A DNA stretch of 64,000 nucleotides from Trichoplax sp. H2. Taxonomy: Eukaryota. Made by a program: the position numbers and the translations under genes. Below the pieces are notes generated by a model that worked only from the letters and a program-made list of their open reading frames with translations, ran no database searches and was not told the DNA's origin. Every line of letters begins with the position of its first letter. Position 1 is the stretch's first letter. The stretch is from the NCBI GenBank assembly GCA_003344405.1, contig NOWV01000127.1:62001-126000 (forward strand), in the 5' to 3' direction. Below, piece after piece: positions 4,336 to 61,807 of the stretch.

Positions 4336-4436
4336 TTTTATTTATTATTTGTGCCTTTAATATTTTATATTTAAAAAGTGGCTTTACACAGATGAAACTT
4401 TAACTACGGTATTTTTAACTAGAATTGCATCAGATG

Positions 4437-12222: not shown

Positions 12223-12564
12223 CTGTAGGAGGAAGAAAAAGCGAAGAGTTGAGCTTTATTCCTTGCATTCAAGATTGACTGTCTACTATAGCAAAAGATG
12301 ATGATTTATTTGCATCTGGCAATACTAATACAGCCCCCCTCCATTGATTTTGCTGTTTCTCCGAAGGAAAGACTGTGTGCAAGTGTCTGCACTCCGCAGG
12401 TCATAAAAGTATACAGTCCAGCGAGCAAGAAAGGCAAGCTGTTGTCGTCTAGTTTGGAGATATTTTATGGCCCAAGATTACTGGTATGATTTTATGGACA
12501 AGGATTAAGGTATCTTTCTCCTTTCTTGCAAAGCCTTGACAAGCAATTGGAGACATTCAGCTAT

Positions 12565-16745: not shown

Positions 16746-17099
16746 CTTGCTATTCCTGCTTTCTATTCCAGATAGCGGATGTCATTTTTCAAAGTCAAAA
16801 GTCCATCATCAGATACTGTATTTCTGAAGTCAACTCAACATGGCTACCCAATCACTCTCAGCCTTGGATAGACTATCGAAGAGGATGGCGCTGATTATGG
16901 AAAATAGCTGCTGAAGGATCAATTAATAAACTCTTCTTTTCTTTCTCCATGGAGAGCTGCTGTCGATCCAACTCGAGCATCTAATCTTGTTCACATCATG
17001 ATTGAGATTCATAACCATGTTCAACTCTCGATCGCTACATGGAAAGGCTCATCTCATCCTTGAAATCTTGCCCAATTTGGCATCATGCCACGATTGGCA

Positions 17100-21300: not shown

Positions 21301-22099
21301 AAACAATGAAAATACCTTCTCATACTCACCAAGAGAAACTCCAACCTCGTCTAAATTTGCTCGGTGAGCAATAAATACCATAAAATAGTCCTCTATGAAT
21401 GTTATGCAGCAAGAGCCTAAATAAAACCCGACCCCTCCATCCAAAGGAGTAGGCTAATTGAGATGCAAATAAAATCAATACTTACCAAGATTGACTGTAA
21501 TGCTATCCAGGTTCGGCCAGCTAGCATACAGGTATTGCAATTTTCAAGACGAGCACTACCGAAATAACAGATTGAATATGGTTACATCAATCAATGATTC
21601 AATTAAGCAAAATATTGATTTAATTTGACCACTTCGTCAACACGACCACAATGATACTGCGATTGTTATCGCCATTTCGACATCGACTGTTTACATATAA
21701 GGTGGCAATCGCCATAACTATCCTGCCCTTACTTTAATCCTTGATGGCCATTTCTTTACACATTGCTGTAGTATCTAAATTCGATGTTAGGTAGACTTTG
21801 AGCTCAATCTGGCCGAGAAAAGATCGCACTGATTACTTACAAATCGAATTATCTCACTTTACACATTGGTTACGCTGTTATAAGTTATAACCTTCACAAA
21901 GATTATATTTACAACGGGAATGGGGCCTAGATGCAGCCAAAAATAAAGAAATGGCGGATCCAATTACATCCTATTATGTCAAACTGAGCAATATCCTCAT
22001 TTTACGAAGCCATCCCCCAAAAATAAATGCGGTGACCACCTTTGTTAACCCATGTGCTAAAGCTTTACCTTGCCCACTCGACAGGTTATACTATAGCTC

Positions 22100-22985
22100 A
22101 AGATGGCTACTTGCTGAGGAATAAGAAGAAGGCATTGCTACCCCCATCGATCCTCAGTACAGTCTTTGTTGAGTTAGGATTTGATAAAAATCAATAAACT
22201 ACTCTACGCTAGCAAGAATAGAGTATCGATAGGCTCACTAAAGTAAGCCAGGAGCTAGTCTTGTTGGAAATGATATTAACTTAATTACGTAAGCCAGTGA
22301 TATTCTTGAGCTGAATTACGTATCCTTTATGAATCATGCTATTCAAACAGATCAGCATCTTGTTACCAATATGCTAAAAATTTCCCTTACCTGATCGATA
22401 GATTATACTACAACTTATGACATTCTGGATGATCTATATATTAATGATATCCTGGAGCTAAATTATGTATCCATTATGAATCATGCTATTCAAAACAGGT
22501 CAGCACCCTGTTACCGATTTGCTAGAAATTTCCCTTACCTGATCGATAGATTATACTACAACTTATGACATTCTGGATGATCTATATATTAATGATATCC
22601 TGGAGCTAAATTATGTATCCTTTATGAATCATGCTATTCAAAACAGGTCAACACCTTGTTACCAACATGCTAAAAATTTGCCTTGTCTGATCGATAGATT
22701 ATACTACAACTTAAAATGGTTGCTTACTGAGGAATAAGAAGGCACTGATACTAATCTATCCGCAGTACAGTCTTTCATGATTTAGGATTTACAAAATCAA
22801 TCCCTTGACGCTAGCAAGGATAAAATGCCGATGGGCCCACTAGCATAGGCCAGGAGCTAGTCTTCTTGAATTTGACATTATTATTTTGATTGCGTAAGCT
22901 AATGATATTCTTCTCCGATATATTCTTTAGCTTAATTGTGTATCTTTTCATGAATCATGCTATTCAAAAGAGGTGTGCATCGTTG
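22100..22985. repeat. Compound repeat: ~148 bp unit x3 nested in a larger duplication
   Basis: 'atgaatcatgctattcaaa' occurs at 22329, 22476, 22624 (period 147-148) and 22949. 'tgaggaataagaag..ggca.tg.ta' occurs at ~22115 and ~22728. Confidence 0.9.
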
Positions 22986-24229
22986 TTATGATCCATAGCC
23001 AATGTCAATAACCAATGTGAAAAGTTGAATACAATCCTAAATGTCATTAAAAGCAATGTTAATTACCTGTGCATTTCATTCCTATCTTGTTATGGCCTAC
23101 AGTAGAAGGGAAGAGAAATATTCAATTTCACCCAGCAAATTTTTTGAGTCAATGTAGAAGCTTCAAAAGTGAAACACTTTAAGGAATTAAGTATTCACAA
23201 TTTTAGAACTAATGTTATATAAGGCTTTAGCAAATTGACCAATATATGCAAATATCATATTATCCAATTCAATTTTTAACCCATGCTCAATCATCTAAAT
23301 AGATTATTCAATCGCCAACATATGGTGGATGGTAGTATTCGTTGTTTATCGGTCAGTCTTCCTCTAGCCTTATGTCAATATTATCTACAGATTTTTTATT
23401 TTTTTCCTGTAGGAAATAAATAATATCCAGCAGCCACGTTATGGAAATGCTTGATAGGGTCTTGGTAATGAGAAATCAGTTTAAAATGGATTGGCCTAGA
23501 TAAATAATTCTTTTCCGTGCGATGGCTACTTATAATCCTTATGAAATTATTTAAAATACAAGCAGGGCAAATATCTGCTTTTGATTCCCTTGTCTCTATT
23601 AATCATAATCCAATAGCATCCATATTGTAAGCCAATCATTGACAGACCATTTATTTTAAATCACTTGAATAATCTGGTCTTGGCTTTAAAGAATCAAACA
23701 GTAATAAACTGACCCGTTTCTCCTCATATTCGTATTTGTTACTCGTACATCGTTTAATATACTTCATAAATTGCTAAGTTGCGGTACTAGAGACGCTCAA
23801 CTTGTCCTACTATCAAGGCAGAACTAATTTGCTCTAACAAATAAATAAAACAAGGCAGGAAATCAATATTGATGGAGGATTTTATACATCTCTCAATTTT
23901 AATTGTAGAGTAGGATATTGTACAAAGATTACGTAATATCTCTTACTATTCCTATCATTTAACAAGCATAGATACGGGAAGGCTTTCAAAATTCTCCCTC
24001 TAAAGACAGTTTTAAGGTTTACACTTAGAATGTTTATTGCTTATTTAATTACCCATAGTCCTATCTCTCCATACGTATCCATAGACTGCTCCTTGATATC
24101 ATCCATCAATCATCTACAAATCGTTAAGCTTACCTAAATAGGAAAGAGCAACTTATCGCATAAATAAATTAATCTTCTCATGCCAATAATAACTGCCTAA
24201 TACGGAATAGATCCAGTAGGTGTCCAGGT

Positions 24230-32161: not shown

Positions 32162-35100
32162 TTACGTTTTTCTACGTTTACTGGCTCTACTTGGAGGAGT
32201 GGCAATTGCTGCTTTAGCAGTCGATCGACTACGTTTCTTACCAGCAACTACGGGCAACATGTCTTTTGGCCATAATATATTATTGTCCGTATCCAATGCT
32301 TGCCGCAATACACCACTTAAGAGTAACTCAGCACTGTGTACAGTCATACAATTTTTAACAGCATCGAAGCAAACGTCTTCGTCTTCATCACAGCTTATAA
32401 TTAACACATTATTGTTAGGATTAGTTGGCATTTTACTTAAGTAGTGACCACCAGCACATTCTACAATCATTTTCATTTGTTCCGGCGGTGGGCGTACATT
32501 CGGTGTCACATACACTTCATAATTTTCAAGTAATGGTTTTTCTTTCGCATTATCATGAGCTTGCCTGATTAGAAAGTTATTCTGCCTTTCTGCAACACGA
32601 TCTTTGATGAAATAAGCAGCTGATGGTACAAATGTTTTGGCAGATTTACAGGCATCAAGCCACTTCGTATTGACGATAGGAATGCCTCTCGATAGGCCAC
32701 ATAAAAATTTAACGGTCCTTCGAATTTTGTCTGTCACTAAATGTGTACATTCCTGGATATTATCAACTACTTGACCTCCTAAAGATTTAATTGTCTATAA
32801 AATAAAACAATACAAATTAGTTCTTATACATGTGTAAGCTATATAAATTGAAAGTTATAGTCCACGCAGCCTGACGCAGGGCAAGAAACTAAAACTTACT
32901 TTTTCACCATCTTCATCAATGAAACCTGTAAACATAACTTTAACCGTCGGATTTTTGCATTCTGATTCAACACTAGATGCATAAATGGTAGACGAGCTAT
33001 CTTTACCAGAAGATTCAAACGGCTGTTTTCTAGATCTTCCTCTTGTGCTACTGACACTTTGAGATTTATCTTTGATATTAGAAGGTGCTGATTTTTGCCT
33101 TTTATTTCCATTTCTCCTACTTGGACTTTTTACTTCCAAAGTATCCACAGTGTCGCTACTTTTCTCGGTAGTGCAACTTTCTAGTGCAATATTTGGCGAT
33201 TCTTCGTCTACGGTTGCATAATTTAAATTGTCGTCGGTTTCAGATGGGGATAACTCAGTAGTCTCTTTTTGGTCATGTGATATTTTTCTTTTGATGCCAG
33301 ATTTTGTAGATTCTTCTTGCTGCCGAATTGAATCAACTATCGACAATTTCTCTTCACTATCCTTAGCAGATACATCTTTATTATCAGAAAGCTTACTTGC
33401 GATCTTGCCATCTTTATTTTGATCCTCTTGAGCTACTGGAGCTGTGGAGAATAACGGACTGGAAAAGCCTTGATTATCGTCTATATCAGTAGCATCAGAG
33501 TCGTCATTTGCATCTGCAACCTCTTCAGTAATTTGCTGTTTAACAGGTCGTAAATCCAAGGTCGATGGCAATTTCTCTACAGAGGGTACACTATCGAATA
33601 AACTCTTATCAGATTGGATACTAGTTTTTACTTCATCATCTGAACTGTATGCAACAGTGGTTGCCATTGGTAGATCGACATGTTTGTCTTTTTCTTTCTG
33701 ACAAACGATCGATTCATTAAACTCATCTTCTGATTCCGTATCTGCTTCATATGGATCTTGTGCTCTAGCTTTATTATCAGACGAAGCACTAGCAGCTGTG
33801 TTTGAATTAGCATTTCCTAGGAAAAGATTAGTGCAAGAAAAAAGAAATCAGAATCAGTTAGAACCAACCTTTTGTCAATTTAATGATAGCGTTGTGTTTT
33901 AAAACTAACCATCATCTACATAGGAAATAGTTTGATCTTGGTCCTTATCATCTAAATTTAATTTGTATGCTATAGTTGCTTCATCATTGTTGGCAATCGT
34001 TTTTTCACTTTTATCGTCTTTATCAGCATCAGTAGAGATGTCATATGCTAGCGTTTCTTCGTAAAAACTGCTCTCTTTTCCCTTGCTAGCTATTTCATTA
34101 TTATCAACCTCTATTTCATAGCAAAGCGTTTCTTGATAATCACTCGCTCGTTTTGTATCTTTATGGCTAATTTCATCATCAGTTGGTGTAGACTGCTTAG
34201 CATCATCATCAATGTTATATGGAATCGTTTCTTGATTGTAGCTATCCTGCACTTTAGAAGTACTACTATTTTGAATATTCTCGGCATTCACGATTTTGGA
34301 GTAATCATTCTTTTCTTCCGCATCATCATTACTTGTATCATCACATGGCAATGTTGCCTCATTTGAAATAGTTGCGCTATGATTTATATCTTTTCTGAAC
34401 TGCGAGCTCTTACTTTCATCCGTATAAACTAGAGTCTGTTGATCGTCAGTATCCTTGTCTGCAACAGATGACCGACGTTGTTTGTTGTTAGGCTGGCTTT
34501 CTTGGCTACTTCCACTGCCAGAAGTTTCAGCTGAGTAAGCTTCAACTGCTTCCAAATTAAACGTGACCGTTTTCTTGGAATTTATTTCTTGCTGAATTTT
34601 ACTGTCATCGTGCTTTCGTGGTATAGCTGGTGATACTGTTTCAACTTTTTTTAATAACAGTTCATTACTGCTGTTAGAATCAGGTAAGTCATCTCCGTTG
34701 GAATCTACAAAATATACAATCGATTCGAGTCCGGTGATTAATATAAAAGGCGTCTACGTTAACAAATTTGCATTAATCTGCAAAGGTAAAAAGCATAGCA
34801 CACTGTTTAATGCTAGGATTTATTTACTTCACAGTGACATGTAAACAAGACATAATTCTATATTCACGATACACTTTATAGAAATGTGCAATCACAATTA
34901 GCAAGTTTGATTTTATTGTACTCATAGTCCTGTCATAATCAATTTATTAAGACCTGATTGTTTCTCACGATCGGGCTTTTCTTTTACATCATCGTCCATG
35001 TTTTCTGCCTACAAGGAGCACAAAATGCAAAAACGTACGTACGAGAGTAATCACTGATTTTATCCTACATGTAAAGATTTTTGCAATGTACTATTAACAA

Positions 35101-36972
35101 GAGCAATAATAAATTAATTACCAACGTGTGTCAAAATGATAGGTATGAGTATCTCTTACTTGTAAGTTAAGCATTAATTCTGATTCTGATGGAGTATCAC
35201 TGCCATCGTCTTCTTCGTTATCATCTTGCTCTATCGTACGAATGTAACAAAGTCTAAGTGATGTCAACGTGTTTTTAAATGGCCTCAAAGAGTAATGTAT
35301 TTGAAAGAAGATTCTTCTAATCACATCTTATTTACTAACTAACATGAAATAACAGCGAGTTCAACATGACATCATACCTAAATTTTTCAAGTACTGACAG
35401 CGAACATCGCCAAAAATGAGCATATCGCAGTGGTTTAACTCGTAACGAACATGCGGCTGAAGTTGTAGCTTTCCACGACGTGATTTGTTCTTGCTATCGC
35501 AATCATACAATAGGTGCATGTCGCCAGCAATTTCGATGCATGCATGGCGTTTGGAGAGTGGTTTTACCGGAACATGCACGGTACTTTTTTTGTCGCGTCC
35601 AATATAATTTTTACCTCGGCGAATAGGAAAGATTGCTTCTTGAAATTCCTCACGCCACCGAAAGACTTTCAAGTATCCAACCTGTAAAGCATATGATGAC
35701 ATGGTTAACAGTGACTACCCTACTGCATATGCATAAGTTATAAATCAGCAAGCAAGTTGTAGCCAGAAAGCCATCATGCGCATGGTAAGATTCAGATTAA
35801 TTATTACCCTCGTTTGATTGCACTGCACAGCCTACTCTGTATCGAACTAGATTACATTACGTCCATCTACAGTCGATGCTAAAGTCACTATTCTTGCAAC
35901 TTTATACAGTAAATAACTCAGGACCAGGCCTGCTCTTGGTGCAGATTCGAGCTACTAAAAAGGTGCAATGGTGATAAATTGCGCAGGGCCACTTCAGGCC
36001 GCCATTAGCATCGTGAGCCATGAGAAATGGAGGATAAGAATCGTGGCCAAGAGTAATTCGGTTTTGTGCAGCTGTTAGCGTTGTCCAACCATGAGAAATG
36101 GATATTTTGAATCATGGCCAAAGTAGTTGGATACATTATCATTATAAAGTCATCATTTTTTGATCACTTAATTAAATGATTCATAATTATAAGCACTGCT
36201 AAATTAAGGCTATAGGCGCAGATTCGAGCTACTAAAAAGGTGAAATTGTGACGAGATGCTGCAGATCCGGTACAGCTATACTGTATACTGTATACATCTC
36301 CAGAGGTCATTTTTGGCAGTTCATCAATGATTCATCCTAAGGCTCTACAGTAGGCTACTAAAATGGTGAAATAGTGATGAAATACTTGTCGGTAAAGTCC
36401 TGCAAATTTACGCCAAGGGATAATAACAATCATGGTCCAGAGAAGTTTGCTACATTCTCAACTAGATCATTAACGTGCAGAGATCAAGTCCAATAGACAC
36501 AGTAAGAATATATTAAAGTCTAAGTCATGATTTATTTTCCACCTGGGTGCAGATTAGAGCTACTAACTGTATTGGGTGAAATGGTGATGAAGTACTGGCA
36601 AAGAGTATGATAGGTAGTGTCCAGATATTTATGCGATCTGCCAAGCTAGCATGTCAAGTCTAACGAGTATTTCTTGATGATTTTCTCATCCATGATATCG
36701 TGGTTGTGGTTTTCGATCGGTAGATGTATTGATTCTACTGACTATATATTCTACGAGCGTGATCTTAAGCTCCATTACGTCATAATACGATGAACAATAA
36801 CGGTGAAAAAGCCATGATGATTTTTCAAGAATGCAATTAAAACCTTGCAGCCCGTTCATGCGTAGGCATACCTAAAGATACTTACCGGAGTGGATGCATC
36901 CTGTGCACTCTTGACGACATCTTCTTCTTGTTGAAAGACGTCCAAGTCCAGTGGTATCGTAAAATCATCCAT
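32162..36972 (-). CDS. MDC1: Mediator of DNA damage checkpoint 1 (FHA - acidic linker - tandem BRCT)
   Basis: Exon 1 (36886-36972) encodes MDDFTIPLDLDVFQQEEDVV..STP. The FHA exon 35378-35681 encodes VGYLKVF..GKNYIGRD..LSKRHACIE..LIFGDVRCQY. Acidic exons follow (ORFs 33905..34555, 32855..33667), then tandem BRCT (KVMFTG..HLVTDKIRRTVKFLCGLSRGIPIVNTKWL..AELLLSGVLRQ). Stop at 32162. Confidence 0.93.
35937..36595. repeat. Dispersed short repeats in MDC1 intron 1
   Basis: 'gg.gcagatt.gagctactaa....ggtg.aa..gtga' occurs at ~35938, 36216, (36353) and 36546. Confidence 0.75.
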
Positions 36973-37378
36973 TGCTTTAATTGGCTTGCAACGATAACGT
37001 GTTACAATGGCAACGTGATCGCCTTTTCGAGGCTTAACAGAAAACTGGATGTAGACTGCACAAGTTGATCAAGGCGGTAGCCAATGGATGCCCTGGCAAT
37101 GATCCAATTTGCTTTGACTGCTATTATTCTCAAACAGAGGATGCAAATACTCGCTTGCACAATTGGATCAGTAGAATAACGTTAATGAAACTCTGGCACT
37201 TTCATCAATGACCAATCACAACTGATAGAAGGAAAGAAATTTCTTCTTGTTAGACCATCCTAGTTCTACAAGGCTGAAAAAGGTCGTGGAGAAGAGGAAT
37301 TTGGATCATCCTTCTCTTGCTTGGCACTCTATCAGGCTGAGCAAGGAGTTGCGCCAAAAGCAAACATGTACGAGCAGG

Positions 37379-38825
37379 TACGCTACAGTACTGTACACTG
37401 TACTGTGCAGAATAAGCTGTCATCCCTAGGGTGATTTCTGTCGTACTGATCGTGTGATACGCGTTGAAAATCGATGACACATTATTGACCAGCTGGAGTA
37501 CGTACGGTACAGTACTGTACACTGTACTGTGCAGAATAAGCTGTCATCCCTAGGGTGATTTCTGTCTTATTGATCGTGTGATACACGTTGAAAACCGATG
37601 ACACGTTATTGACCAGCTGGAGTACGTACGGTACAGTACTGTACACTGTACTGTGCAGAATAAGCTGTCATCCCTAGGGTGATTTCTGTCGTACTGATCG
37701 TGTGATACGCGTTGAAAACCGATGACACGTTATTGACCAGCTGGAGTACGTACGGTACAGTACTGTACACTGTACTGTGCAGAATAAGCTGTCATCCCTA
37801 GTGTGATTTCTGTCCTACTGATCGTGTGATACGCTTTGAAAACCGATGACACGTTATTGACCAGCTCGAGTACAGTGTAAAAGGAGATTGTACTGTAAAA
37901 ATGTAGAGTACGTTGGATTGATAAAAAGCAGAATACCGTCTTGACACCTACAGTACAGTATACAGTAACATAGATCCTGGAGTCGTACTGTACTGTACAC
38001 AGCACAGTATGCTGTGGAAATCATACAGTACTGTACACTGTACAGCATAGTACTCTACTAATCTGTACTGTAGCCCGAATTTCGACTACGGTGACAATAG
38101 TTTTGCTTAAGCTGTTGCTCAATATTCACGGGCGTACATGATATTCTATTGTCTAGTGTCTACTCAACGACTCATAAACTGGTAGATTAAGTACTATAGC
38201 GTACAGTACATTGTCTTTGTTGATGGCCCGATGAATGCGAGTCATGGCTGAAATCCACTGCGGATGGCTTTCAAAATCATATCGTGCCTACAGTACGGAA
38301 TCATGATCGCATTCTGTGAAACTGTGTGTAAAATAAATGTCGTAAAAAGCTGATATACTATACTGTAATTTACGACATATGTTTTCCACGAGCCTATACC
38401 GTACTATACTGTACAGTGTACAGTACTGTGATTTTGTGCATCGGTTTGCACTCTGGAGTCTCCATACTAGACAGACTGATAGATGGACCCTAAAATCGTT
38501 AGCTTACAGTAGACCTACTGAAACAACTGNNNNNNNNNNNNNNNNNNNNGATGACACATTATTGACCAGCTGGAGTACGTACGGTACAGTACTGTACACT
38601 GTACTGTGCAGAATAAGCTGTCATCCCTAGGGTAATTTCTGTCTTACTGATCGTGTGATACGCGTTGAAAACCGATGACACGTTATTGACCAGCTGGAGG
38701 ACGTACGGTACAGTACTGTACACTGTACTGTGCAGAATAAGCTGTCATCCCTAGAGTAATTTCTATCTTACTGATCGTGTGATACGCGTTGAAAACCGAT
38801 GACACGTTATTGACCAGCTCGAGTA
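37379..38825. repeat. Near-identical 124-bp tandem repeat (4 copies 37379-37870; 2+ copies 38550-38825), each carrying a TACAGTACTGTACACTGTACTGT block
   Basis: 'gcagaataag' occurs at 37407, 37531, 37655 and 37779 (period exactly 124) and at 38608 and 38732. Confidence 0.95.
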
Positions 38826-40130
38826 CAGTGTAAAAGCAGATTGTACTGTAAAAATGTAGAGTACTGTACAGTACGTTGGATTGATAAAAAGCAGAATACC
38901 GTCTTGACACCTACTGTACAGTATACAGTAATATAGATCCTGGAGTCGTACACAGCACAGTATGCTGTGGAAATCATACAGTACTGTACACTGTACTGTA
39001 CACTGTGCAGTAATATACAGTGTACAGTGTACAGTACAGCATAGTACTCTACTAATCTGTACTGTAGCCCGAATTTCGACTACGGTGACAATAGTTTTGC
39101 TTAAGCTGTTGCTCAATATTCACGGGCGTACATGATATTCTATTGTCTAGTGTCTACTCAACGACTCATAAACTGGTAGATTAAGTACTATAGCGTACAG
39201 TACATTGTCTTTGTTGATGGCCCGATGAATGCGAGTCATGGCTGAAATCCACTGCGGATGGCTTTCAAAATCATATCGTGCCTACAGTACGGAATCATGA
39301 TCGCATTCTGTGAAACTGTGTGTAAAATAAATGTCGTAGAAAGCTGATATACTATACTGTAATTTACGACATATGTTTTCCACGAGCTTATACCGTACTA
39401 TACTGTACTGTACAGTGTACAGTACTGTGATTTGGTGCATCGGTTTGCACTCTGGAGTCTCCATACTAGACAGACTGATAGATGGACCCTAAAATCGTTA
39501 GCCTACAGTAGACCTACTGAAACAACTGTACAGCTACCTAGTAATGATAGCAATGACAGCTAAGGCTTTCAAAATCATGTCGTGCCTATAGTAAGGGAAT
39601 CATGATCGCATTGTGTAAAACTGTGTGTAAAATTAATGTCGTAGAAAGCTGGTACACTATAGTGTAATTGACACCTTAATTTACGACATCTGTTTTCCAC
39701 GGGCCTATACCGTACTATACTGTACAGTGTACAGTACTGTGATTTTGTGCATCGGTTTGCACTCTGGAGTCTCCATACTAGACAGACTGATAGATGGACC
39801 CTAAAATCGTTAGCTTACAGTAGACCTACTGAAACAACTGCACAGCTACCTAGTAATGATAGCAATGGCAGCTAAGGCTTTCAAAACCATGTCTTGCCTA
39901 TAGTAAGGGAATCATGATCGCATTGTGTAAAACTGTGTGTAAAATTAATGTCGTAGAAAGCTGATACATTATAGTGTAATTGACACCTTAATTTGCGACA
40001 TCTGTTTTCCACGGATCGATACGGTACTGTACTATACTGCGATTTCGTGACTGTGTCACGTCTTGCTAGTGGACAGACTGACATATGGACCCCACAATCG
40101 TTAGACTATAGTAAACCTAGTGAAACAACG
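38265..40130. repeat. ~305-312 bp repeat (copies at ~38265, 39260, 39565, 39877), part of a larger ~1 kb duplication 37860-38529 / 38814-39528
   Basis: 'gctttcaaaa.cat.tc.tgccta.agta.ggaatcatgatcgcatt.tgt.aaactgtgtgtaaaat' occurs four times. 'ccagctcgagtacagtgtaaaa' occurs at 37861 and 38814. Confidence 0.92.
38530..38549. other. Assembly gap (20 N)
   Basis: Run of N between two copies of the duplicated repeat block. Confidence 1.
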
Positions 40131-40646
40131 GCATACTGGAAGTAGGCGCGTCTCCATACTGGACATACTGACGAACGGACAGGAGGAAGATTGGCTTAAA
40201 GTAGACCTACTGAAACATTAGTGCAGCTCGCTAGCAACGGTATACCGAAAAGACAAGCTCAAGACCAAGTGGACGCAAGCCAATCCATGCAGCCAATTCA
40301 AATTGACAGTTATTCTTCTCGCCAAGCTGAGGATAAAAACACTTTCTCGATCTTGGCCTTGATTGCAATGATGGAAAATCATCCAATCAACTAATGTACA
40401 GTTGTTTTCCATCATGCCCTTAGCGGAGAGACGATTGAACGATCTTGTAGGTGGTAGAAAAGCCAAGAAATTGGTCTCCGTTAATTGAATTATTGATCGA
40501 TCGAAAACAATTTAGTGGCATCGTCCTCAACATCGTTGCTGACAAGTACAACGCCAAAGCAATTTGAAATTATTGATTTCATCGACATTCGTTTCCATTT
40601 CTTCTATAATCGATACACAGATAGTTTCCAATGTAACATAATTATC

Positions 40647-43600
40647 ATGGAAGATTCAAGTATCCATGCTGATGGCTTTGATGCCAATCATTACGATGAT
40701 GATGATCAAGTACGAAGTTTACAAGAAAGAGTCAAGCAATTAGAATTGCAAAATAAGATCTTACAACAACAAAATCAATTGGATGAAGAACACAATAAAT
40801 TCAATTTAAACGATGTTCAATTAATCGATTTGAAACAGCCAACCATCCATGATGATAACGAAGACAGTTGGTGAGGATAACTTATAAATAGTGAATATAT
40901 CAACATTCACTTTCATCCATCATACAGTGCATCACTTGGAAGCGATCATATGTTGACCTAAAAGTGAATCACCATCTTGAGCTGATTGTGTTGATACTCT
41001 TTCGTCATATGTTAGGAGATAGCTAATTTTCTCAATAGGATCTTCCAGTAAATCGTCAATTTTACTCCATTGACGATCTATACTTGTACATAGATTGAAA
41101 TCATTCAAAATCGCAATCGAGTTGACTTTCTATGCATACGGCATTAGACGGTATTCGACGTACTTAAATTTGATATGTAATGGAAACGACTGCAGCTTGT
41201 CAATGTTCGTATACTTTACTAGAACTGATTTAAGGTGTACTTGAATTGTTTTAGTTGTTGATCCTCTTCCCTTCCCATCTCCCTACAAATTGTTTCTGCA
41301 TACTGTAGACGCAGTGTTTATTTAGATGACTACGCTGAATGGCTATTCTCAATCTTTGATATGACAGTATAAAAGTCTTATGAGTAACTTAATAATAATT
41401 ATCATTTGATGATCAATCATGGCGCCGTCCAGTCTGCTACAATGACTACAGTAAACTACACTTTCCATTAAACCACGACACCTAGATGATCCCCGTTCAA
41501 GTCCGTCGTAATCCCGATTTTATCCCTTACATGGACATTTTCTCTATGTGCCTTAATCTTAATTATGTTGAGGAGTCATGCCCTGCCAACTGCCACTATT
41601 AAAACAGCAGCAGCTTAAAAATATTTACACTTGGCGCTATCCTACCGTGCTAGTCTGCAAATCATCATGCTGATGATAGGATGGATGTTCGAATTATACA
41701 GTAATTGAAGATTAAGGAGGAAATGCATGATACACGTGAAATGGTAGGCATAGCTATCCCATGCTAGCCAAAATGATTAGACAATACATTATCCTAAATT
41801 GAATTAATGAGTCATTCTATCCACTAAACAATCAATCAATGATGCATTTGTATTAAAGTCTTCTCGTCTTTTGACCGCTTATATTGGATTGTTTTAGCTT
41901 AATCTTCCTTCAAGTGCTCCAATAACAAACTCAATTATAATTAACGACATTGATTGCGTATGTGTCTGCGATATTACCATCTTTAATTTAGCCTATTTAG
42001 TTATAATCGGTAATCGTGATCCGTTTTTTGAAAAAGAGGATTAAATAGAAGAAAGCTCAACACTACATGTACAGTATAATTCAATTGAAGCAAATATGAA
42101 GTGTCGAAAGCTCTGAAATCAACAAGGCGCATTAGCTACCTTTCATTACTTTAAGTCATAGCAAATAACGAATAACTTTAACAAATCAATGTTAATATGA
42201 TCTAGCATCAGTAATAATTATATAATCAATCTATTACTTTTTGCAGCCGCAAATCTTGCATTATTCCAATCCTTTTTAATAGTCTGTAAAAAATTATTTA
42301 GTTCTTCCAATACTTTTTAAATAATTAGTAAAGGACGTCATGAACGATTGGATTAATACTCAAATCATCCATTTTGTATGCGCGTATAAATATACAAAGA
42401 GCAAACGTTTATTAGCACCTTGATGGAGTATTAACATGGATTTTACCATGGCAATGGTAACCTATTCTTTCAATAGGCTTTATGAATCACCAAGAGCTCA
42501 TCCGACACCAGAACAAAAACTACAGAGCCCATGGAAATGGATGGAAGTAGGCTCTTATGATGAACTACAAGAAATTCGCGGTAATCTTGCTTCAAGATTT
42601 AACCAAGCTAGCAATGATCACCCAGGTTTGTAACTTGTTTATGAATTCAACGCTATGCTCAATTTCAAGTAAAATGCAAAGTGCAATAATGGATAGATAA
42701 ACATGAGCATAGCTGAATTAATTAATATTTTTCATAATTTAAATGAATAGCCAGCATTGCGCGTCTACCAAGTCAATGCAATTTTCAACCTACAGTACAA
42801 TATTATAGCGTGGATTATATTCATGACTGTCTCAATTACTTTAGATCACTTAAATACATCTGGCAGTCTATCATATGCGAATCGACGCTATTCGGATCTT
42901 AGTCAGGTTTCGCGATCAACTGCACGCTTATCAAAGAAAGCGTTTACTTCGCCTCCTTCTATCAAAATTCATGGCAAAGGTAATCGCCAGGAATTACAAC
43001 AGGATGTAAATAATAATCATACAGATTCCAATTTATTACATAAAAGTGCATCAAACATTTCCAATGGTGATGGCGGCTCGAAAATCAAACTACTCTCAGA
43101 CACTAATTTACGACGACACTCTTTAAACACAAACAATAATCGTTCAATCCCTAGCAGCGGAAGCTCTAATCGCTCCATCGCAGGAAGTGGATTATCGCCA
43201 AGAGGTAGTATAGAGAACTTAAACGATGGTGGATCACGACTTGGTTTAAGAAGACCTAATCTAACGACGAAGCAGACTCTACAAGTTGGTACTCCAGTTG
43301 CACAGAGTCGTCAATTTAGCCGATCTACTAATGATGGTAAGATATTAGTGCCAGTGAGATTGCTTTGCATACGTTCATGTTATTTATCGTTTCTATTAAC
43401 AATAACACAGTGATACAACCTGCCTTCTGTATCTGGTAAAGTAGGTAGTCTATACTGTCATTAAATTTCATGTTGTGTAAATCATTATTGATATACACGA
43501 TCTTAACAGTTTCAGGTGATGCTAACAATAATAATTCAGCAATGATCAGATTTGGTACCTTCAGACGTTCGTCAGATGTACCACCCCGTACCCTGAATGC

Positions 43601-51346: not shown

Positions 51347-54316
51347 GATTTAAGCTTGTAATGGCGATGACTAATCTCAGTAGAATGAGTGCAATAAGTC
51401 AAGACAGAATGGTTGAAATCAATCCAAGATTGAACACGATCACCAAGGTGATAATCAAGCTTGCGGTTGTGCAACTTGGTGGTACTGGTACCTGTCCCTT
51501 TCCGTCATGGATCGCTGCTGACTGCTGAAGATTTTCCACTAGGATCACGTCGATCCACGTCTAGTTGGGTCTAGTAATCAATGGATTCCTTCTTGTCAAT
51601 GTATCAATCTCCATAGACGTCGATGGCTGACTGACTATTTCTCTATTTGGTCAGCAGCTTGGAGAATAATTTGAAATTTGAATTTTGAGCTGCAGCAAAT
51701 TGGCTGGAGGCGAGGCTACAGTACTGTACTACAGTATAGCGCTGGAATGGAGAGAATGGAAATTGCTGTTTTCTACTGTGGTACTGAGTGCGCCAACGGC
51801 AGGTCTGTTAACGTATCGCGCGGGAAAATACTGTAGTAGAAGTGGGGTGGACTACAGTACGTTGTACTGTAGTTCCCACCCTGACGGAGGATCCGTACGT
51901 CCGCACTGCCATGTCGCGAGCGCCATTCCACAGTACTGTACACTACAGTACATTGTACAGTGGTGTACCTAGTGTACAGTACAGTGTACAGTACTGTCCA
52001 ATGGTGTGCATCGAATTGCTGTCCATCCACCTTCCATTTTCTCTATAGTAAAAGCTGTTCAAATTGAAACTTCTTCCAACGGGAACCCTGCAGATTGAAT
52101 CGTCCAAACATGACTAAGTCTGAGTGTACTCTACCATAGAGTTGACTTGATGGCGTGTAGTGTACGTCCGTATCGTCAATCTGTCATGTACAGTACAGTG
52201 CAGTACTAGACCGTGTACAGTACAATGTACTGTACATCCTTCATCCAAACATGACTGGGTGTACTGTACAGTGTACAGTGTACAGTACTGTACCATAGAG
52301 TTGACTTGATGGAGGGTAGTGTACAACTGTACAGTACGTACTGTACTGTACGCCCGTATCGTCGATCTATCATCTACAGTGCAGTTCTGGACCGTCTACA
52401 CTGTCCATCCCCTCTACACTCTACTGTATTTTCCCTATAGTAAAAGCTGTTCAAATTGAAATTGCTTCCAATGGGAACCCTGCAGATCCACTCTTCCAAA
52501 CATGACTGAGTGTACTCTACCATAAAGTTGAAAGGATGGAGGGTAGTGTACGTCCGTATCGTCAATCTGTCATCTACAGTGCATTACTAGATCAGTACTG
52601 TACTGTACAGTGATGTACTGTACATCCCTTCATCCAAACATGACTGCGTGTACAGTACTGTACAGTACCATAGACTTGACTTGATGGAGGGTAGTGTACT
52701 GTACGTACGTCCGTATCGTCGATCTGTCATCTACAGTGCAGTTCTGGACCGTCTACAGTACACTGTCCATCCCCTCTACAGTACACTCTACTGTATTTTC
52801 CCTACAGTACTGTATAGTAAAAGCTGTTCAAATTGAAACTGCTTCCAATGGGAACCCTGCCGATCCTATCCTCCAAACATGACTGAGTGTACAGTACTGT
52901 ACCATACACTTCCCTCTATGGAGTGGAGAATCCATCCGTATTGTCCATCTGTCACCCACAGTGCCGTCCTCGACGGTGTACAGTACAGTGTACAGTCGGC
53001 CTATGTTAGTACTGTAGCTAGTAGGCAAAAACAACGGTTCACAGTCCCAGTATAGCAGTCAACACCAACGGCCAAGTAAGTCATCAAGTCTGCAAGAAAC
53101 AGCTTGCCATCGTCAACAACATCTCTTGCTCTCCATACTTTGTTAACTCTATCCATGGAATCTTAGTGGTATGTAGAGAATGTATGCCTGCTTGCAAAGG
53201 AATGATGTACGATGAATCATGACTAGACTACCTCACTTTTTTGTTGCACTATACTATCATGCAATGCCGCTATCCTAGACAGTTAGTTGTCGTCATCATG
53301 CATCAGCGTCTTTTCGACTTGTTGTATTTGAAATGACGCTGGAGCTAGTGCATGCTTTCCAATGGCATGCCCATGACTCTACTACAACTTTCAAATAAAA
53401 CTAATAAGTTGATGATGGTACGCAGTGATAGAATAAATAGTCAGTCAGATGTACAATATTAGCATGCTTGACTATCGGTCAAGTGGAAGGAAAGTCATCA
53501 AAAACTGACATTGCTTTATGCCTCCTCGATTGCCCAATGCTATTCGTTGTGCATGCAATCAAGAAAGGATCCATGTCCTAATGCAATGGATTAGGAGAAC
53601 GTGACACTAGGCTTCAATTGCTGTAGATAGAGTGGAAAGTATTAGCTTTCAATCGCTAGGATCCGATGTCATAGACGGCTACTCGAAAATTGAGAAAATT
53701 TTCGGAAACTATACTCACAACGAAATCTTACTAGGATCTCATCGCTACAAGCAAACGGGCAATCTTAGCAGTATTGATCCTAACGTCCTCTTAGGATAAC
53801 GGCGTACCACTACAGGACATTACAAGTGGCATACGTATGCCAGCGAAATAGACGCACACTTGTGATGTTGCAATCATTAAAAGATAAATCTTTTAGACAT
53901 GGACTGCTTAGAACTATTCTTATCAAACAATTGTGCTAAGAGATGAAATGCCATGTTGAAATATTGTCTCCCCTTCTAGCTTAATACTGTACTTGCTTGC
54001 TACCGTATTGGATAGATCGCTTTTCCACTGTACAACGATAAATCATCAACGACGTGTATACTGTACGGAGACGTACAAATAACGACGCTAGTTTTGTATG
54101 TAGACGTAGTGAGAATGGCGTTAAAGGATAAAATTGAACATGGTGAAATGTTGTCCACTTTACAGCTTGCTTTCTATTCTATTCGATATATTACTCTTCC
54201 ACAACGAAAATCATAAATTCTATCTAGTAATAGAAGAATCCATCAACAACGCTGATTAGTCCAATTGTTGAACGCTAAGTCAACACTTTATATTTTCTCT
54301 TGCAGAGCACCAAATA
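51347..54316. promoter_or_regulatory. Divergent OFD1/NUP54 promoter interval
   Basis: Lies between the ATG of OFD1 (-, 51346) and the ATG of NUP54 (+, 54317). An acceptor ttgcag at 54300-54305 suggests a 5'-UTR intron in NUP54. Confidence 0.6.
51717..52996. repeat. Compound tandem repeat (~120-150 bp subunits, ~380-400 bp higher-order unit) riddled with TA-CAG-TA/TA-CTG-TA blocks
   Basis: 'tccaaacatgact' occurs at ~52103, 52243, 52495, 52633 and 52872. 'tagtaaaagctgttcaaattgaaa' occurs at ~52046, 52438 and 52815. Confidence 0.92.
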
Positions 54317-57292
54317 ATGTTTTCACAATCTCTTAGTGGAAATAATACTGGTACATTCAAATTTGGTGCTGGTGGCAACACTGCTACCACACAAGCCAAT
54401 CCGTTAGGTGGTGGTGGTGGCGGCGGCTTTTCCTTCGGAGCATCAAATACCCAAAACGCTGCTAATAAAAGCTTTACCGGATTTGGCAACACAACCACCC
54501 AAGCTGGTAATTTCACAGGTTTGGGTGCCACCGCAGCAGCGTCCGGTGGTTTTGGTGGATTTGGCACCAATACAACCTCACAAGCAGCCGGATTTGCAGG
54601 ATTTGGCAAGACAGCAACCACACAATCAACAGGATTTGGTGGACTCGGTACAAATACTTCTACACCATCGACAGGCTTTGGTAATTTCGGTACAAATACG
54701 TCCACGCAATCGGCTGGCTTTGGAGGATTCGGTACCAATCCAACGACGCAATCTGCAGGATTTAGCACTTTCGGTAAGCCAACGGCCACGCAATCCGCTG
54801 CCTTTGGGGGATTTGGTAATACATCTACTTCACAACCAGCTGGATTTGGTGGCTTTGGTACTACATCAGCGCAACCCACTGGCTTCGGTGGATTCAATAT
54901 GTCAACAACATCCAAACCAACTTTCGGCACAGCAACCACTCAATCGAGCGGATTTGGTAGTTTTGGTACAACAGCACCTCAAGCAATTGGTTTCGGTGGA
55001 TTTGGTAGCCTTGGAGGCAGTTCTGCCTTACAAACAGGATTTGGACCATCGACCGCGACTACCTCTCTATTCGGTAAGCCGTCTGGTAATATAAGTGGAT
55101 TTGGAGCTGGAACCAGTGCGCTTAGCTTTGGCGGTCAAACTACTGCAAGTAATTTACTTGGTGGCCAAGGATTAGCTCCTGGTGTTGGTCAACAAGGTTA
55201 GTTTTCACTGAGCTTATTTCACATTTTAATTATCTTGAAAGACGGTAATTTATTCTGTGCAGTTTAGGAAATAAGTAGTAAGAGTGCGTCTGAATTCATT
55301 ATTGATCATCTATTTGTCAATAGCTGTTCAGGGTGGTGTTCCTGAGAATCTTCTTTTAGTTGCTAGTTGTACCTGTAATATTTTTGGTGATGAAAGGGAT
55401 CTAACACTAGCAAAGTTTAATCAACTTCAAGCTATCTGGGGGCTCGGAAAAGGCTTTTATAATAGACACGCGCCTCCAATTGAGTACCAACGATCGAATC
55501 CTTTGTGTATATTTAAGGTTAGAATCGCTGTGACAATTATATAACTATCAAATACAGAATGTTTTATCAAGATCCTCTTCAGGGTAATTCATAATTTCAA
55601 TGATCCATATTGTTCTTCTTAGACCGTATGCTTTAGTAGCCTGCCTGCAGTAAAAGAATCTGATGGACTTGTTGTTCTTAAACTCAATAAGAAAGAAGCA
55701 GATGTAAATGCTCAAAAACAAAACATTTTAGATGCACTTTATACTGCTTTAGGAAAAAGACCGTTATTATCGGTGCGATTTGTTGATGTTAGAGCTATTG
55801 GCGACAATGCGTAAGTAGATGGTATATTGACCCTATTTCGCGTAGTAGATTGACTTGCTACCAGTGGACTTCATGTTGTAGACTAGTTTAAATTGAAGGG
55901 GATTTTATTTTTAGATCCGAAATGACATTTTATATTGAAGAAAGAGCGCTCAATGGGGTTCGAAAGCGTTACCTTGCTCGTGAGATTATTGATCATTTGT
56001 CTAGAAATAATTTTTCTGTAAGTTTCATCAATATAAACTTGGTCTACGCGTATACGAGATGTACTTTTCATAGATGGTAGCAATATTGGCAAATGATAAT
56101 GATCTAGGTAATATAGAATGCATATTTTTCTGAATCATAGAGCCAAATAGCCAGCTTAGGAATAGTGGATATTTATCCAAAACCGATCATTACTCCACAA
56201 CAAGTTAGAGATGTCCTAGAAAATCCTCCGTCAGGTTCTAATATCGGTATAGATTTCAATTTTTTAATTACGGCAATTGCTAACATTCTAGTATTGTGTA
56301 GGTATTAATCCAGCTGTGTGGAAACAAGCTATTGAGAATAATCCTGATTCCGCAAAGTTAGTCACTTAACTCTTTGGCGCATTAGTTAAGGAGAAAGATT
56401 GACATTATGATACAAGGCATTCTTGTTAAAAGTATTTACCCATTGTTTCCTACGCTATTCTAGTTTAATTCCTATACCAGTAGTTGGATTTGAAGAATTA
56501 TGTGCTAGATTTAAGGCTCAACAAGAAGAAACAAAACGCCAAAATTCTGCTTGTGAAGTAAGACCTATTATTGTGGTAAAATAATTCAATCCTAATAATA
56601 TGCTTATTTTATCCGAAATATTTTGACAGCAAATATCGGATGAGTTGGTTAAATTACAGCAAAAGCAAGCTGTAGTTAGTGCTAGAGTAAATCAGTATCG
56701 ACGTAAACACATGGAACTATGCCATCGTGTGTTAAAGATCATTAGTAAACAAGAGTTAATTAATAAGAGTGGATTTTCGTTAACTGAAGAAGAAGATCAA
56801 TTCCGATTTAGACTTCAGGGAATGGAAACTGATTTCAATGCCCCAAATCAGTTTAAGGTTATTTAGCATTTTATTATATCCATGCAAATTAACTGCCTAG
56901 CTGTATATGGGATACACCAAGCGAGTGATAAAAAGGAATTGATTTTTATCCTTATTGATTGCAGAACCGGCTGTATGAGTTAATGTCTCAAATCAGTATG
57001 AAGAACACAACTTCATCAGGACCACAAAATTTAGAATTTAAGGCAGATGAAGAGACATTGCATACCATTAAAAGAGTTAGTTATACTCGTACACTATTTT
57101 TGATAAAAATAAGATTAAAATAGATTATAATAAGGTTTTTATTAATTGATTTTGTACACGTATTTCCATTATACATAGTATCTAACAAACCAACAGAAAG
57201 CTATAACTGCCTTAGTTGAAACATTTAAAGAAGATCTAGAGGACATTAACGTTATTGAACAAGGCTGGTCAGGTTCTTCAAATAAAAGCTGA
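54317..57292 (+). CDS. NUP54: Nucleoporin Nup54 (FG-repeat N-terminus, alpha/beta and helical domains)
   Basis: An FG-repeat exon (54317-55197) is followed by IFGDERDLTLAKFNQLQAIWGLGKGFY..NPLCIFK, NPPSGINPAVWKQAIENNPDSAKLIPIPVVGFEEL and YRRKHMELCHRVLKII..NAPNQFK. Stop TGA at 57290-57292. Confidence 0.95.
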
Positions 57293-57584: not shown

Positions 57585-59085
57585 TCAATGATTATAATTA
57601 GCAGCTTTATTTGAAATATCACTGTGACGTCTAACTTTATTACTATGAGATGTATGGTAATGTTCCTTTGCTTTATTTTGGGCGTGATCCCTGCTCTTGG
57701 AACGTTTGTCTGTAGTAGTAACCGACTTTTCGTCTAAACGACTCTTCTTGACGCAGTCTTTAGCACTAGCAAGTTTGGGCAACTCTATAAAGTAAAAATG
57801 TCACATCAAACGTTACTGTAGCATTTATTCAGTCGCTTCTTTAATAAGTCGATTATTGTAAAGCAAAATAAAGTTTTCCATTTTATTTACTATGTATATT
57901 GTAATGCAATATTTGTTATCCGTCCTATCAAGGCAGCGATAAATAACGGAGGCTCTGTACTACTACTGCTTTATATCGAATTTTATAAGTAACATTATTG
58001 TTCGTTGCATTTTGTTTATACTTATTGTAATAAGGTTACGAAATTATTTATCATTGCTACAATAATAGTAGGAACTACCTATATCGTTCTCAATTTATCT
58101 GATAGTCGCTAAGAAATCATTTATCACTCAGGTTACCTTTCCTTTTGTTTGATCGAACAGCATTTGTCATCATATTTTTCAAATAAACCTTATTAGCACC
58201 CGGTAATTTTTTCCTATGTGATGCGGTAGATAAATGTTACACATAAGCAATACACTACGTCAATTTATTATAATTATTATCGCTTTCAGACTACGTTTAA
58301 CTATTTCTACTTGTGTACAGTGGTGATGTATCATAGAGCACACTACTCATTCATTTTAGTTTAATCAGAAATGCGATTTAGCTGCAATATACTACATTTA
58401 TTATCGCTTTTCAGACAACGCTTAACTATTTTTGCTTGTGTACAGTGGTAATGTATCATACATAGAGTACACTACTCATTCTTTCTACTTCAATCAGGAA
58501 TGCAATTTAGCTGCATTTACATTGCAGTCAATTTATCCATACTTTTACATTAACAAGATGGATAAGGTATTTAATGTATCCTTTTGAGTAGAGATTGAAA
58601 GGAATTACCCAGTTTACTTACCATCCAATGACTCCTATTCTTTCAGAGCGATCTTTTCCTCTCTTTGCTTCTTTTAAGATTTCTTCAGCGGCTAACCTGG
58701 AAAATAGGATGAAGTATGATAGAATTAGTACCTTATTACTGCCATCCTTAGAATTAAGTCTCTCTTTCCCTCTCTCTCTCAATCATCGTTCAGTATCGTA
58801 CCATTCCATACAGTAGTGAACTCGTGATTGTATCAGCCAACATGATCGCAATATAACTACAGGTATTGCACACGGTACCTCGATACCTCGCAATTGGAAG
58901 CTATCGAGAGCAACTACTGCAATGTGATATCAATTTCAAAATAAATTTATTGACTAGCTAACAGTACTTGAATCTATTCTTTACTATCTTCATACGAAGT
59001 GTATATGATACTACATAGATCACCTTTCAAGTTCGTCATCATCAAAAGTAGGAAGAGATTTGCTGTCCTTTTTATCCATTGACAT
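57585..59085 (-). CDS. POLR1D: POLR1D isoform-2-like small basic protein (not the RPAC2 polymerase subunit), 4 exons
   Basis: In-phase exons 59024-59085, 58622-58696, 58137-58213 and 57585-57784 give MSMDKKDSKSLPTFDDDELER LAAEEILKEAKRGKDRSERIGVIGW KKLPGANKVYLKNMMTN... This matches recalled human POLR1D isoform 2 (MEEDQELERKAIEELLKEAKRGKTRAETMGPMGWMKCPLASTNKRFLINTIKN). Confidence 0.85.
58255..58515. repeat. ~130 bp direct duplication in an intron
   Basis: 'ttattatcgctttcagac.acg.ttaactattt....ttgtgtacagtggt.atgtatcata..gag.acactactcatt...aatcag.aatgc.atttagctgca' occurs twice. Confidence 0.9.

Positions 59086-61764: not shown

Positions 61765-61807
<43 letters not shown>

What the first reader, a model, noticed from the sequence alone, without database searches (positions are those of the whole stretch)
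37861..39070. Reciprocal CAGTA/CTGTA gains between two near-identical ~1 kb copies show the footprint process is recent and ongoing
Seen: copy 1 has gagta|cgttgg (37906) where copy 2 has gagta-CTGTA-CAGTA-cgttgg (38859). Copy 1 has gtcgta-CTGTA-CTGTA-cacagc (37982) where copy 2 has gtcgta|cacagc (38945). Copy 1 has accta-CAGTA (37951) where copy 2 has accta-CTGTA (38914). A much longer stack sits at 38977-39040 than at 38023-38045. Outside these sites the copies differ by only a few substitutions, so footprint-type indels arise about as often as point mutations. Established: the CAG/CTG alternative at one site is what repair of the mismatched 3-nt overhang heteroduplex produces. Inference: both copies (tandem duplicates, or two haplotypes joined across the N gap) gained scars independently.
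Basis: partly seen in the sequence, partly recalled or inferred. Interest (0 to 1): 0.85.

Follow-up and report, generated by a model that had tools for sequence, protein, structure and literature searches.

The report
Allelic variation in Trichoplax ACAGT repeats
The two near-identical copies are the two parental versions of one promoter region of the tiny sea animal Trichoplax, and they differ by gains and losses in an already published five-base repeat whose unit looks like a jumping-gene scar but which here seems to grow mostly by copying its neighbours, with no sign that it is changing right now.

Summary
The differences are real and at the stated places; a fourth one (5 nt at 39401) was missed. 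The DNA is Trichoplax and the units are the (ACAGT)n repeat published in 2010 with no origin given. Public contigs show that the copies are alleles laid side by side across the 20-N gap, not a tandem duplication, and reveal a third and probably a fourth allele that differ again by 10 and 15 nt. All 4 indels between the copies are built of TA-CAG/CTG units, about six times the genome's indel rate. But 'ongoing' is not shown: one allele recurs unchanged under another species label. The process is local: 0 of 51 indels in older repeats outside two promoter fields are of this type. The 5-nt unit points either way, as a Tc1/mariner footprint would; the 7-nt unit is polar (9 of 10), as a local duplication would be, and most gains are multi-unit. 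No transposase or element was found. Best reading: footprint-like seeds, later growth and loss by local copying. The scan noted this repeat before in other Trichoplax windows.

The parts
37597..38529 (.). Copy 1 = allele 1 (unique part 37874-38529); ends at the contig break
   Evidence: same version in run X13 records 10 and 11, which run on past the break into the sequence that follows copy 2
38530..38549 (.). 20-N assembly gap between two overlapping haplotype contigs
   Evidence: allelic reading
38550..39528 (.). Copy 2 = allele 2 (unique part 38827-39528)
   Evidence: long stack exact in X1 record 3 and X3 record 19, 5-nt gain exact in X1 record 7
38862..38873 (.). Site A filled (CTG, CAG); empty GTAC site in copy 1 at 37908-37911; direction unresolved
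   Evidence: a T at 38870 in X3 and X7 suggests that other alleles are filled differently
37949..37960 (.). Site B in copy 1 (CAG, CAG); copy 2 has CTG, CAG at 38912-38923; third allele CTG, CAG, CAG, CTG
37986..37997 (.). Site C filled in copy 1 only (CTG, CTG); exact reverse complement of site B, 25 nt away; empty in copy 2 at 38948-38951
   Evidence: absent from the third allele
38977..39040 (.). Site D long stack; 41 nt (38993-39033) absent from copy 1 (38024-38045) and the third allele; holds 2-3 letters off the unit grammar
39401..39405 (.).
   Evidence: absent from copy 1, from X7 record 26, X13 record 11 and from the paralogous 312-bp unit
37378..37873 (.). 124-bp tandem array (4 copies; 2.2 more at 38550-38823), each unit with a stack
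39260..40037 (.). 312-bp tandem array (2.5 copies); serves as internal outgroup for site E
35364..35714 (-). FHA-domain exon of the MDC1-like gene (BRCT exon 32162-32794) that points away from the field on the left
   Evidence: Pfam FHA E 1.4e-8; BRCT; MDC1-named relatives. A start near 36970 is inferred, not shown
40497..40874 (+). Open frame of an unnamed gene pointing away on the right; the field thus lies in a probable head-to-head promoter
   Evidence: no Pfam family; promoter role is inference
51600..53100 (.). Second field of the same units, in a ~390-bp diverged array between a LisH gene (minus) and an FG-repeat gene (plus)
   Evidence: LisH_2 E 1.8e-13; FG-rich frame 54272-55201

Best explanation
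Shown: the two copies are alleles of one locus in a heterozygous Trichoplax, lying in a dense field of the published (ACAGT)n repeat between two divergent genes, and the field is a length-mutation hotspot. Inferred, two steps. (1) The 5-nt unit TA-C(A/T)G-TA was first laid down at TA sites as the excision footprint of a CAG-ended Tc1/mariner element that is now a relic; this gives the thin scatter outside the fields. (2) Where several units lie close, they share the palindrome GTAC, and slippage, template switching or synthesis-dependent end joining copy one or several units from a neighbour, directly or inverted, into nearby GTAC/TAC sites, or delete them between two GTACs. Step 2 makes most of the differences between today's alleles and needs no active transposase. 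The differences built up over the ordinary 1% allelic divergence, not demonstrably in the present.
For: Alleles: X13 record 11 (700 nt) matches copy 1 in all six substitutions and the sizes of three indels and continues into 39529-39563 and beyond, like copy 2; depth of the shared part equals single-locus depth (X1 51.5 vs 61 for an unrelated 7.1-kb contig and 25-30 for one-allele pieces; X7 43.9 vs 21.6; X3 34.2 vs 11.4); 7 substitutions vs 6.5 expected at the published 1%. Seeds: unit equals the canonical footprint; first-unit orientation is blind to the outer flank (TG 17:18, TA 14:12, AG 7:7); 52 heptamers at 4685 TA outside fields and long frames vs 2 at 765 in long frames, P = 0.028; isolated ones avoid TTAA context, 0 vs 5.0 expected; decayed Tc1-type relics are listed for the genome. 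Local growth: 23-24 heptamers per kb in two fields vs 0.9 outside; footprint-type indels 0 of 51 in nine older arrays outside the fields (349 substitutions) vs 3 strict of 4 in the allele pair (7 substitutions), P = 1.6e-5; allele differences are 10, 10, 41, 5, 10 and 15 nt, only one a single unit; the 7-nt unit TACAGTG-TA is followed by CAG in 9 of 10 cases, never by CTG; 4 of 7 bare sites that gained units are GTAC against 12-17% of bare TA in the fields, P about 0.005-0.012 (my tally; test); 123 of 144 GTAC outside the fields are untouched; the 41-nt piece has 2-3 off-grammar letters (P 0.002-0.08) and a 10-mer identical to 38926-38935 (about 0.016, post hoc). SD-MMEJ makes direct, inverted and patchwork copies of nearby sequence (PMC2943611 passages).
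Against: No direct test of either step. Orientation-blind 5-nt gains at bare sites in field B (52754, 52777, 52803) are simplest as fresh footprints, and 52803 has only TA in common with the unit. The match of each 10-nt insert to its neighbour stack is weak (1 in 8 by chance). The hairpin in the long stack is no evidence: 59-74% of random stacks of that length hold a 16-nt inverted repeat. A C before the TA favours CAG 33:16 (P 0.02 uncorrected), unexplained. A transposase that prefers open promoters and its own scars would also cluster. Some outside arrays may be coding or otherwise constrained. Counts are small and several tests are post hoc. No CAG-ended element has been shown in this genome, so step 1 rests on likeness of sequence.
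Confidence: 0.47

Rival explanations
1. One reading: every unit is one insertion-and-excision cycle of a TA-targeting, CAG-ended Tc1/mariner element. Each scar in a GTAC site creates two new GTAC sites, so an element that prefers GTAC in open promoter chromatin re-hits its own scars; activity lasted at least through the divergence of these alleles and may continue.
For: Exact identity with the Sleeping Beauty footprint pair; mixed orientation in stacks, identical neighbours only 7 of 30; orientation blind to flanks; clean single-unit gains at bare TA sites in field B; TA-CG-TA, a listed non-canonical footprint, 28 vs 14; the same grammar in 22 distinct metagenome loci against 1 match in 596 Gb of prokaryote genomes, 1.1 expected.
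Against: No transposase in 70 frames of 55 aa or more in the two intergenic regions; no element-like inverted ends among the 25 longest of 362 inverted pairs; two papers find Trichoplax transposons scarce and probably inactive; none of the four alleles is seen with an element; about 11 cycles at 5 of 73 TA sites would be needed within 1% divergence while 209 TA in older arrays show none; polarity of the 7-nt unit; off-grammar letters in the 41-nt piece; no full fill-in product TA-CAGCTG-TA (0); shared allele unchanged.
Confidence: 0.25
2. No transposon at any stage: the unit arises by mutation from GTAC-rich palindromic words, spreads by slippage and template switching, and is kept near promoters because it has a chromatin role; likeness to the footprint is a coincidence of a short palindrome.
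For: All local-copying evidence above; promoter link published (54% within 1 kb upstream); a Hi-C model recovers repeating ACAGT as a motif tied to chromatin folding in T. adhaerens (PMC12817080 passage); transposons reported inactive.
Against: Does not say why this one heptamer among all odd palindromes is about tenfold enriched, why isolated copies far from any stack are still several-fold above chance (0.9 per kb outside fields), why orientation ignores the flank, or why the same word turns up in unrelated, apparently eukaryotic contigs.
Confidence: 0.24
3. The copies are a true tandem duplication, or one of them is an assembly error.
For: No laid contig spans the whole stretch, the gap length is unknown, and contig depth is a rough measure. 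Three copy-2 letters in the 124-bp array are in no contig.
Against: Both versions occur in independent runs; copy 1 continues into the same downstream sequence as copy 2; depth is that of one diploid locus; runs hold different pairs of versions, as alleles would; divergence equals the published allelic rate.
Confidence: 0.04

Closest known systems
(ACAGT)n microsatellite of Trichoplax adhaerens (Wang, Zhang, Meyer, Bao 2010, PMC2871265; parts 1-3 of 4 read, supplement hits seen)
   Same: Same organism and unit (5624 perfect arrays in the genome; 54% within 1 kb upstream of genes); here too upstream of genes.
   Different: The paper counts pure arrays and proposes a transcription-factor site; it does not describe mixed CAG/CTG orientation, the 7-nt unit, allelic gains at bare TA sites, or an origin.
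Canonical excision footprint of Sleeping Beauty / Tc1-like elements (PMC6943129 and bioRxiv 10.1101/659086, passages)
   Same: TA + CAG or CTG + TA; either orientation; TA-CG-TA also listed.
   Different: No element, inverted ends or transposase seen; units are stacked and clustered; the 7-nt unit is not among the eight listed footprints and is polar; most allelic differences are multi-unit.
Synthesis-dependent microhomology-mediated end joining, loop-out and snap-back (Yu and McVey 2010, PMC2943611, passages); replication slippage and template switching (recalled)
   Same: Direct, inverted and patchwork copies of nearby sequence primed by short repeats.
   Different: Described at induced breaks in Drosophila; not tested in placozoans; does not by itself explain the first unit.
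Placozoan promoter-hub motif in Mutator terminal repeats (Kim et al. 2025, PMC12221973, passages; figures not held)
   Same: A transposon-linked repeat concentrated at housekeeping promoters of placozoans; shows that open promoters collect such sequence.
   Different: PMC12817080 assigns the ACGG motif, not ACAGT, to that element; ACAGT, TACAG, mariner and Tc1 do not occur in Kim's text. I did not test for Mutator ends here.

Membership tests
(ACAGT)n microsatellite of Trichoplax | Trichoplax DNA | tested here: met
   BRCT frame 100% identical to a T. adhaerens protein
(ACAGT)n microsatellite of Trichoplax | Unit ACAGT or its complement, strongly over-represented | tested here: met
   about tenfold over shuffles
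(ACAGT)n microsatellite of Trichoplax | Upstream of genes | tested here: met
   both fields lie between divergently pointing frames; transcription starts not mapped
Classical slippage microsatellite | Head-to-tail units in one orientation | tested here: not met
   identical neighbours 7 of 30; among 5-nt pairs 12 of 17 are opposite
Tc1/mariner excision footprint | TA + terminal 3 nt (CAG or CTG) + TA at a former TA | tested here: met
   3 of 4 allele indels parse strictly so; the 41-nt one does not
Tc1/mariner excision footprint | Orientation independent of the flank | tested here: inconclusive
   met for the 5-nt unit at TG, TA, AG flanks, not met for the 7-nt unit; C-flank bias 33:16
Tc1/mariner excision footprint | A donor element with CAG...CTG ends on TA duplications in the genome, or at the site in another allele | tested here: not met
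   none in the window or in the alleles seen; whole genome not held, so absence holds for the window only
Tc1/mariner excision footprint | An intact, expressed transposase | not testable with these tools
   no genome held; papers report relics only, three single-copy full frames without terminal repeats
Tc1/mariner excision footprint | Single events spread over TA sites | tested here: not met
   0 of 51 indels outside fields; multi-unit gains at 5 of 73 TA sites inside
SD-MMEJ / template-switch products | Insert plus flanks repeated nearby, direct or inverted, including non-unit letters | tested here: inconclusive
   every insert has local matches, but the alphabet is shared; only a 10-mer and a 9-mer carry non-unit letters
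SD-MMEJ / template-switch products | Dependence on polymerase theta or on replication | not testable with these tools
   needs genetics
Haplotype duplication in an assembly | Both versions continue into the same flank; single-locus depth; allelic divergence | tested here: met

The most novel reading that the evidence does not exclude
An unseen or domesticated TA-targeting cut-and-paste activity still visits open placozoan promoters again and again, leaves almost no element behind, and its scars have built the genome's commonest repeat, which has become part of promoter or chromatin-folding architecture; the same stacking grammar in unrelated eukaryotes would make excision scars a general, overlooked source of simple repeats.
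Probability: 0.18. Interest if true: 0.85.

Novelty: new variant of a known kind. Interest (0 to 1): 0.36.

Why it matters
The ACAGT repeat is the dominant simple repeat of Trichoplax, sits at promoters and has had no explained origin since 2010. A series of three or four alleles at one promoter shows that these fields are length-mutation hotspots with mixed orientation, unlike ordinary microsatellites, and gives testable signatures for birth by transposon footprint versus growth by local copying. If footprints are the seed, a genome called almost free of transposons carries a large record of past transposition.

Tried and rejected
No whole genome held, so no genome-wide search for elements. 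A 23-nt pattern from the shared part found 0 stretches in metagenome contigs. Chimera idea (copy 1 = recombinant of 312-bp units 1 and 2, because it shares three letters and the missing unit with unit 2): dropped, as X13 record 11 returns to unit-1 letters after 39528; a conversion tract remains possible. The 7-nt unit as a second, trimmed footprint class from CAGTG ends: attractive at first (12 and 8 vs 0.5 and 0.4; GT/AC slippage forms CACAG, CTGTG 1 and 0) but rejected because it is polar. Hairpin of the long stack (-20.4 kcal/mol, z -3.8) as proof of fold-back copying: rejected by simulation. TA-CCG/CGG-TA as a second element family: not pursued, 5 and 8 after removing duplicate copies and one transition away from the main unit. 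A 4-bp GTAC target duplication around TGT...ACA ends (Ginger-like, recalled): fits site A only, not C or E. X13 was chosen as a possible divergent outgroup (share 0.48) but is a low-depth run of the same alleles. In the metagenome loci that have relatives, indels are ordinary; none listed is a clean CAG/CTG unit gain. A Tc1-like transposase relic next to a stack in L001 has no matching ends: anecdote only. No Rfam family in 34000-56000. Coral MITE paper (PMC2872659 passages): unrelated piggyBac-type elements. Ten literature searches (listings only unless named) showed no paper that derives the Trichoplax repeat from footprints; the library lacks most subscription journals and Repbase Reports, and the supplement of PMC12221973 was not looked at.

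Full report
Setting. The window is placozoan DNA: the BRCT frame at 32165-32788 is 100% identical to a Trichoplax adhaerens protein, with MDC1-named relatives. No whole genome is held. The finding lies between an MDC1-like gene on the minus strand (FHA exon 35364-35714) and an unnamed frame on the plus strand (40497-40874), so probably in a head-to-head promoter (inference). It holds a 124-bp array, a unique segment and a 312-bp array; a 20-N gap at 38530-38549 separates two versions of about 1 kb.

All coordinates check. Three of the four parse strictly as (CAG or CTG + TA)n behind a TA; the 41-nt one is made of the same units with 2-3 stray letters. TA-CAG-TA and TA-CTG-TA occur 67 and 72 times in the window against 6.1 and 6.8 in shuffles. 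With the published allelic rates of 1% SNPs and 0.1% indels (Kamm 2018, PMC6057997 passages), 6.5 substitutions and 0.65 indels are expected: substitutions are ordinary, indels are in excess (P = 0.004).

The repeat is known. Wang et al. 2010 (PMC2871265, parts 1-3 of 4 read; supplement hits) report ACAGT as the dominant microsatellite of Trichoplax, 54% within 1 kb upstream of genes, propose a factor-binding role, give no origin, and find transposons scarce (0.13%) and inactive, with 11 mariner/Tc1 relics. Kamm 2018 also concludes that transposons are not now shaping the genome. A Hi-C model recovers repeating ACAGT among motifs tied to chromatin folding in this species (PMC12817080, one passage). 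My ten searches showed no paper deriving the repeat from footprints. The scan's own notes hold the footprint idea several times for other Trichoplax windows; these are unchecked leads, not support.

Alleles, not duplicates. I laid contigs of 4 of the 18 listed runs (X1, X3 with label A; X7, X13 with label B; four studies) on 38703-39563. X13 record 11 (700 nt, depth 3.8) matches copy 1 in all six substitutions and in the size of three indels (+10, the 41-nt skip, -5; inserted letters not printed) and runs on through 39529-39563 and 62 nt further, exactly where copy 1 breaks off; record 10 has copy 1's empty site A (for the lengths). Copy 2's long stack is exact in X1 record 3 and X3 record 19, its extra unit at 39401 in X1 record 7. 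Per-contig depth of the shared part is that of one diploid locus (X1 51.5 against 61 for an unrelated 7.1-kb contig and 25-30 for one-allele pieces; X7 43.9 and 21.6; X3 34.2 and 11.4). Depth is rough and no contig spans the whole stretch, but all signs agree. A third allele appears in X7 record 24 and X13 record 12: four units (CTG, CAG, CAG, CTG) at site B, no insert at site C, short stack at D. X3 record 17 carries a T at 38870 and 15 nt more than copy 2, probably a fourth allele; contigs can mix alleles across bubbles, and only 32 of about 9,000 pieces were printed.

Direction and date. By majority among the alleles that can be read, site C is a gain in copy 1, and sites D and E are gains in copy 2 (E is also absent from the paralogous 312-bp unit). 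Site A is unresolved: other alleles seem filled, so copy 1 may have lost 10 nt between two GTACs; D could likewise be an old stack deleted elsewhere. 'Reciprocal gains' is therefore likely but unrooted. 'Ongoing' is not shown: the copy-1 allele is unchanged in length at all five variable sites in a run with the other species label, which fits the published pattern of an allele shared by two clonal lineages apart for at least 25 years. That bounds the rate only loosely; a slow present process is not excluded.

For a footprint origin. The unit pair is the canonical Sleeping Beauty footprint. Stacks are mixed: identical neighbours are 7 of 30, so plain slippage is not enough. The first unit of a stack ignores the outer flank (TG 17 CAG to 18 CTG, TA 14 to 12, AG 7 to 7), as end joining of a mismatched overhang would give; a C flank leans to CAG, 33 to 16. 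Outside the fields isolated heptamers remain enriched, are rarer in long frames (2 of 765 TA vs 52 of 4685, P = 0.028) and avoid TTAA context (0 vs 5.0). In the second field single units appear at bare TA sites between array units. A 20-nt stack word occurs in 36 metagenome stretches, 22 distinct, against 1 in 596 Gb of prokaryote genomes where 1.1 is expected; the size of the metagenome collection is not given, so this is no rate. Six of 23 such loci had Pfam hits in 90 of 94 listed frames scanned, all of eukaryote or transposase type.

Against one excision per unit. The process is local: 23-24 heptamers per kb in two fields, 0.9 outside. Nine older arrays outside the fields (2173 aligned nt, 349 substitutions, 209 TA) show 0 footprint-type indels of 51, against 3 strict of 4 at 7 substitutions here (P = 1.6e-5). 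GTAC alone is not the target: 123 of 144 outside are bare. Allele differences are 10, 10, 41, 5, 10 and 15 nt; the only single unit sits beside an identical unit. The 7-nt unit is followed by CAG in 9 of 10 cases and never by CTG (7 of 7 informative stacks, P = 0.008; 17 to 1 in the metagenome loci, many from one locus), which marks a direct duplication, not blind joining. The 41-nt piece has 2-3 off-grammar letters where 0.2-0.45 are expected (P 0.002-0.08) and repeats a 10-mer from 80 nt upstream (post hoc), so it was copied or is old, not freshly stacked. No transposase domain in 70 frames of the two intergenic regions, no element ends among the longest inverted repeats, no element in any allele seen. 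One argument failed: the long stack's hairpin is common in random stacks (59-74%).

Verdict. Real allelic polymorphism in a known repeat. I favour footprint-like seeds from a lost Tc1/mariner element with later growth and loss by local copying (0.47), over repeated transposase visits (0.25), no transposon at all (0.24) and duplication or artefact (0.04). It works like a footprint at the level of the unit; membership as Tc1/mariner footprints is not established, since no donor was found and the spread over TA sites is not met. Interest 0.36: the repeat is published and the headline claim of ongoing activity is unsupported, but the allele series and the polarity and locality tests make the origin question testable.

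Noticed in passing
window 51600-53100: Second field of the same units in a diverged ~390-bp array; 8 of 23 indels between units parse as unit gains (pairs not independent), including clean single units at 52754 and 52777.
   Followed up: partly
window 37384, 38977, 39401, 51975, 52262: The same unit order (CAGTG, CAG, CTG or its reverse) recurs in five of the long stacks; contigs from elsewhere in the genome pile on such strings (summed depth 125,000 at 39399-39427 in X1).
   Followed up: partly
L001:247-1105: Internally deleted Tc1-like transposase frame (HTH domains, QQDND-type motif) 330 nt from a stack; no matching terminal repeats found.
   Followed up: partly
L008, around 374-393: A stack in the middle of a 23-nt inverted repeat that extends into non-unit flanks, as a fold-back duplication would leave.
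   Followed up: no
L003, L013, L033, L027: Dense fields of the same 5- and 7-nt units in unrelated metagenome contigs (L033: 31 heptamers in 1.2 kb; L027: 35 in 8 kb beside a C2H2 gene).
   Followed up: partly
L036:1-1176: Frame with a Tc5-type transposase DNA-binding domain about 1.6 kb from the stack word.
   Followed up: no
window 59423-59456 and 59852-59946: Two palindromes (34 nt at 94%, 95 nt at 82%) in non-coding DNA, the first centred on a CAGT-CT-ACTG word.
   Followed up: no
window 4433-4783, 8729-9012, 12545-12978, 15886-16749, 22031-22988, 58261-58515: Many short diverged tandem arrays (units 83-148 nt) with ordinary indels; used as controls.
   Followed up: partly
window 38755-38765: Three letters of copy 2's 124-bp unit are in none of the laid contigs; possible contig-end errors or rare unit variants.
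   Followed up: no
window 61501-61814: 12-nt (16 copies) and GAT (20 copies) repeats in an open frame coding an acidic low-complexity stretch.
   Followed up: no
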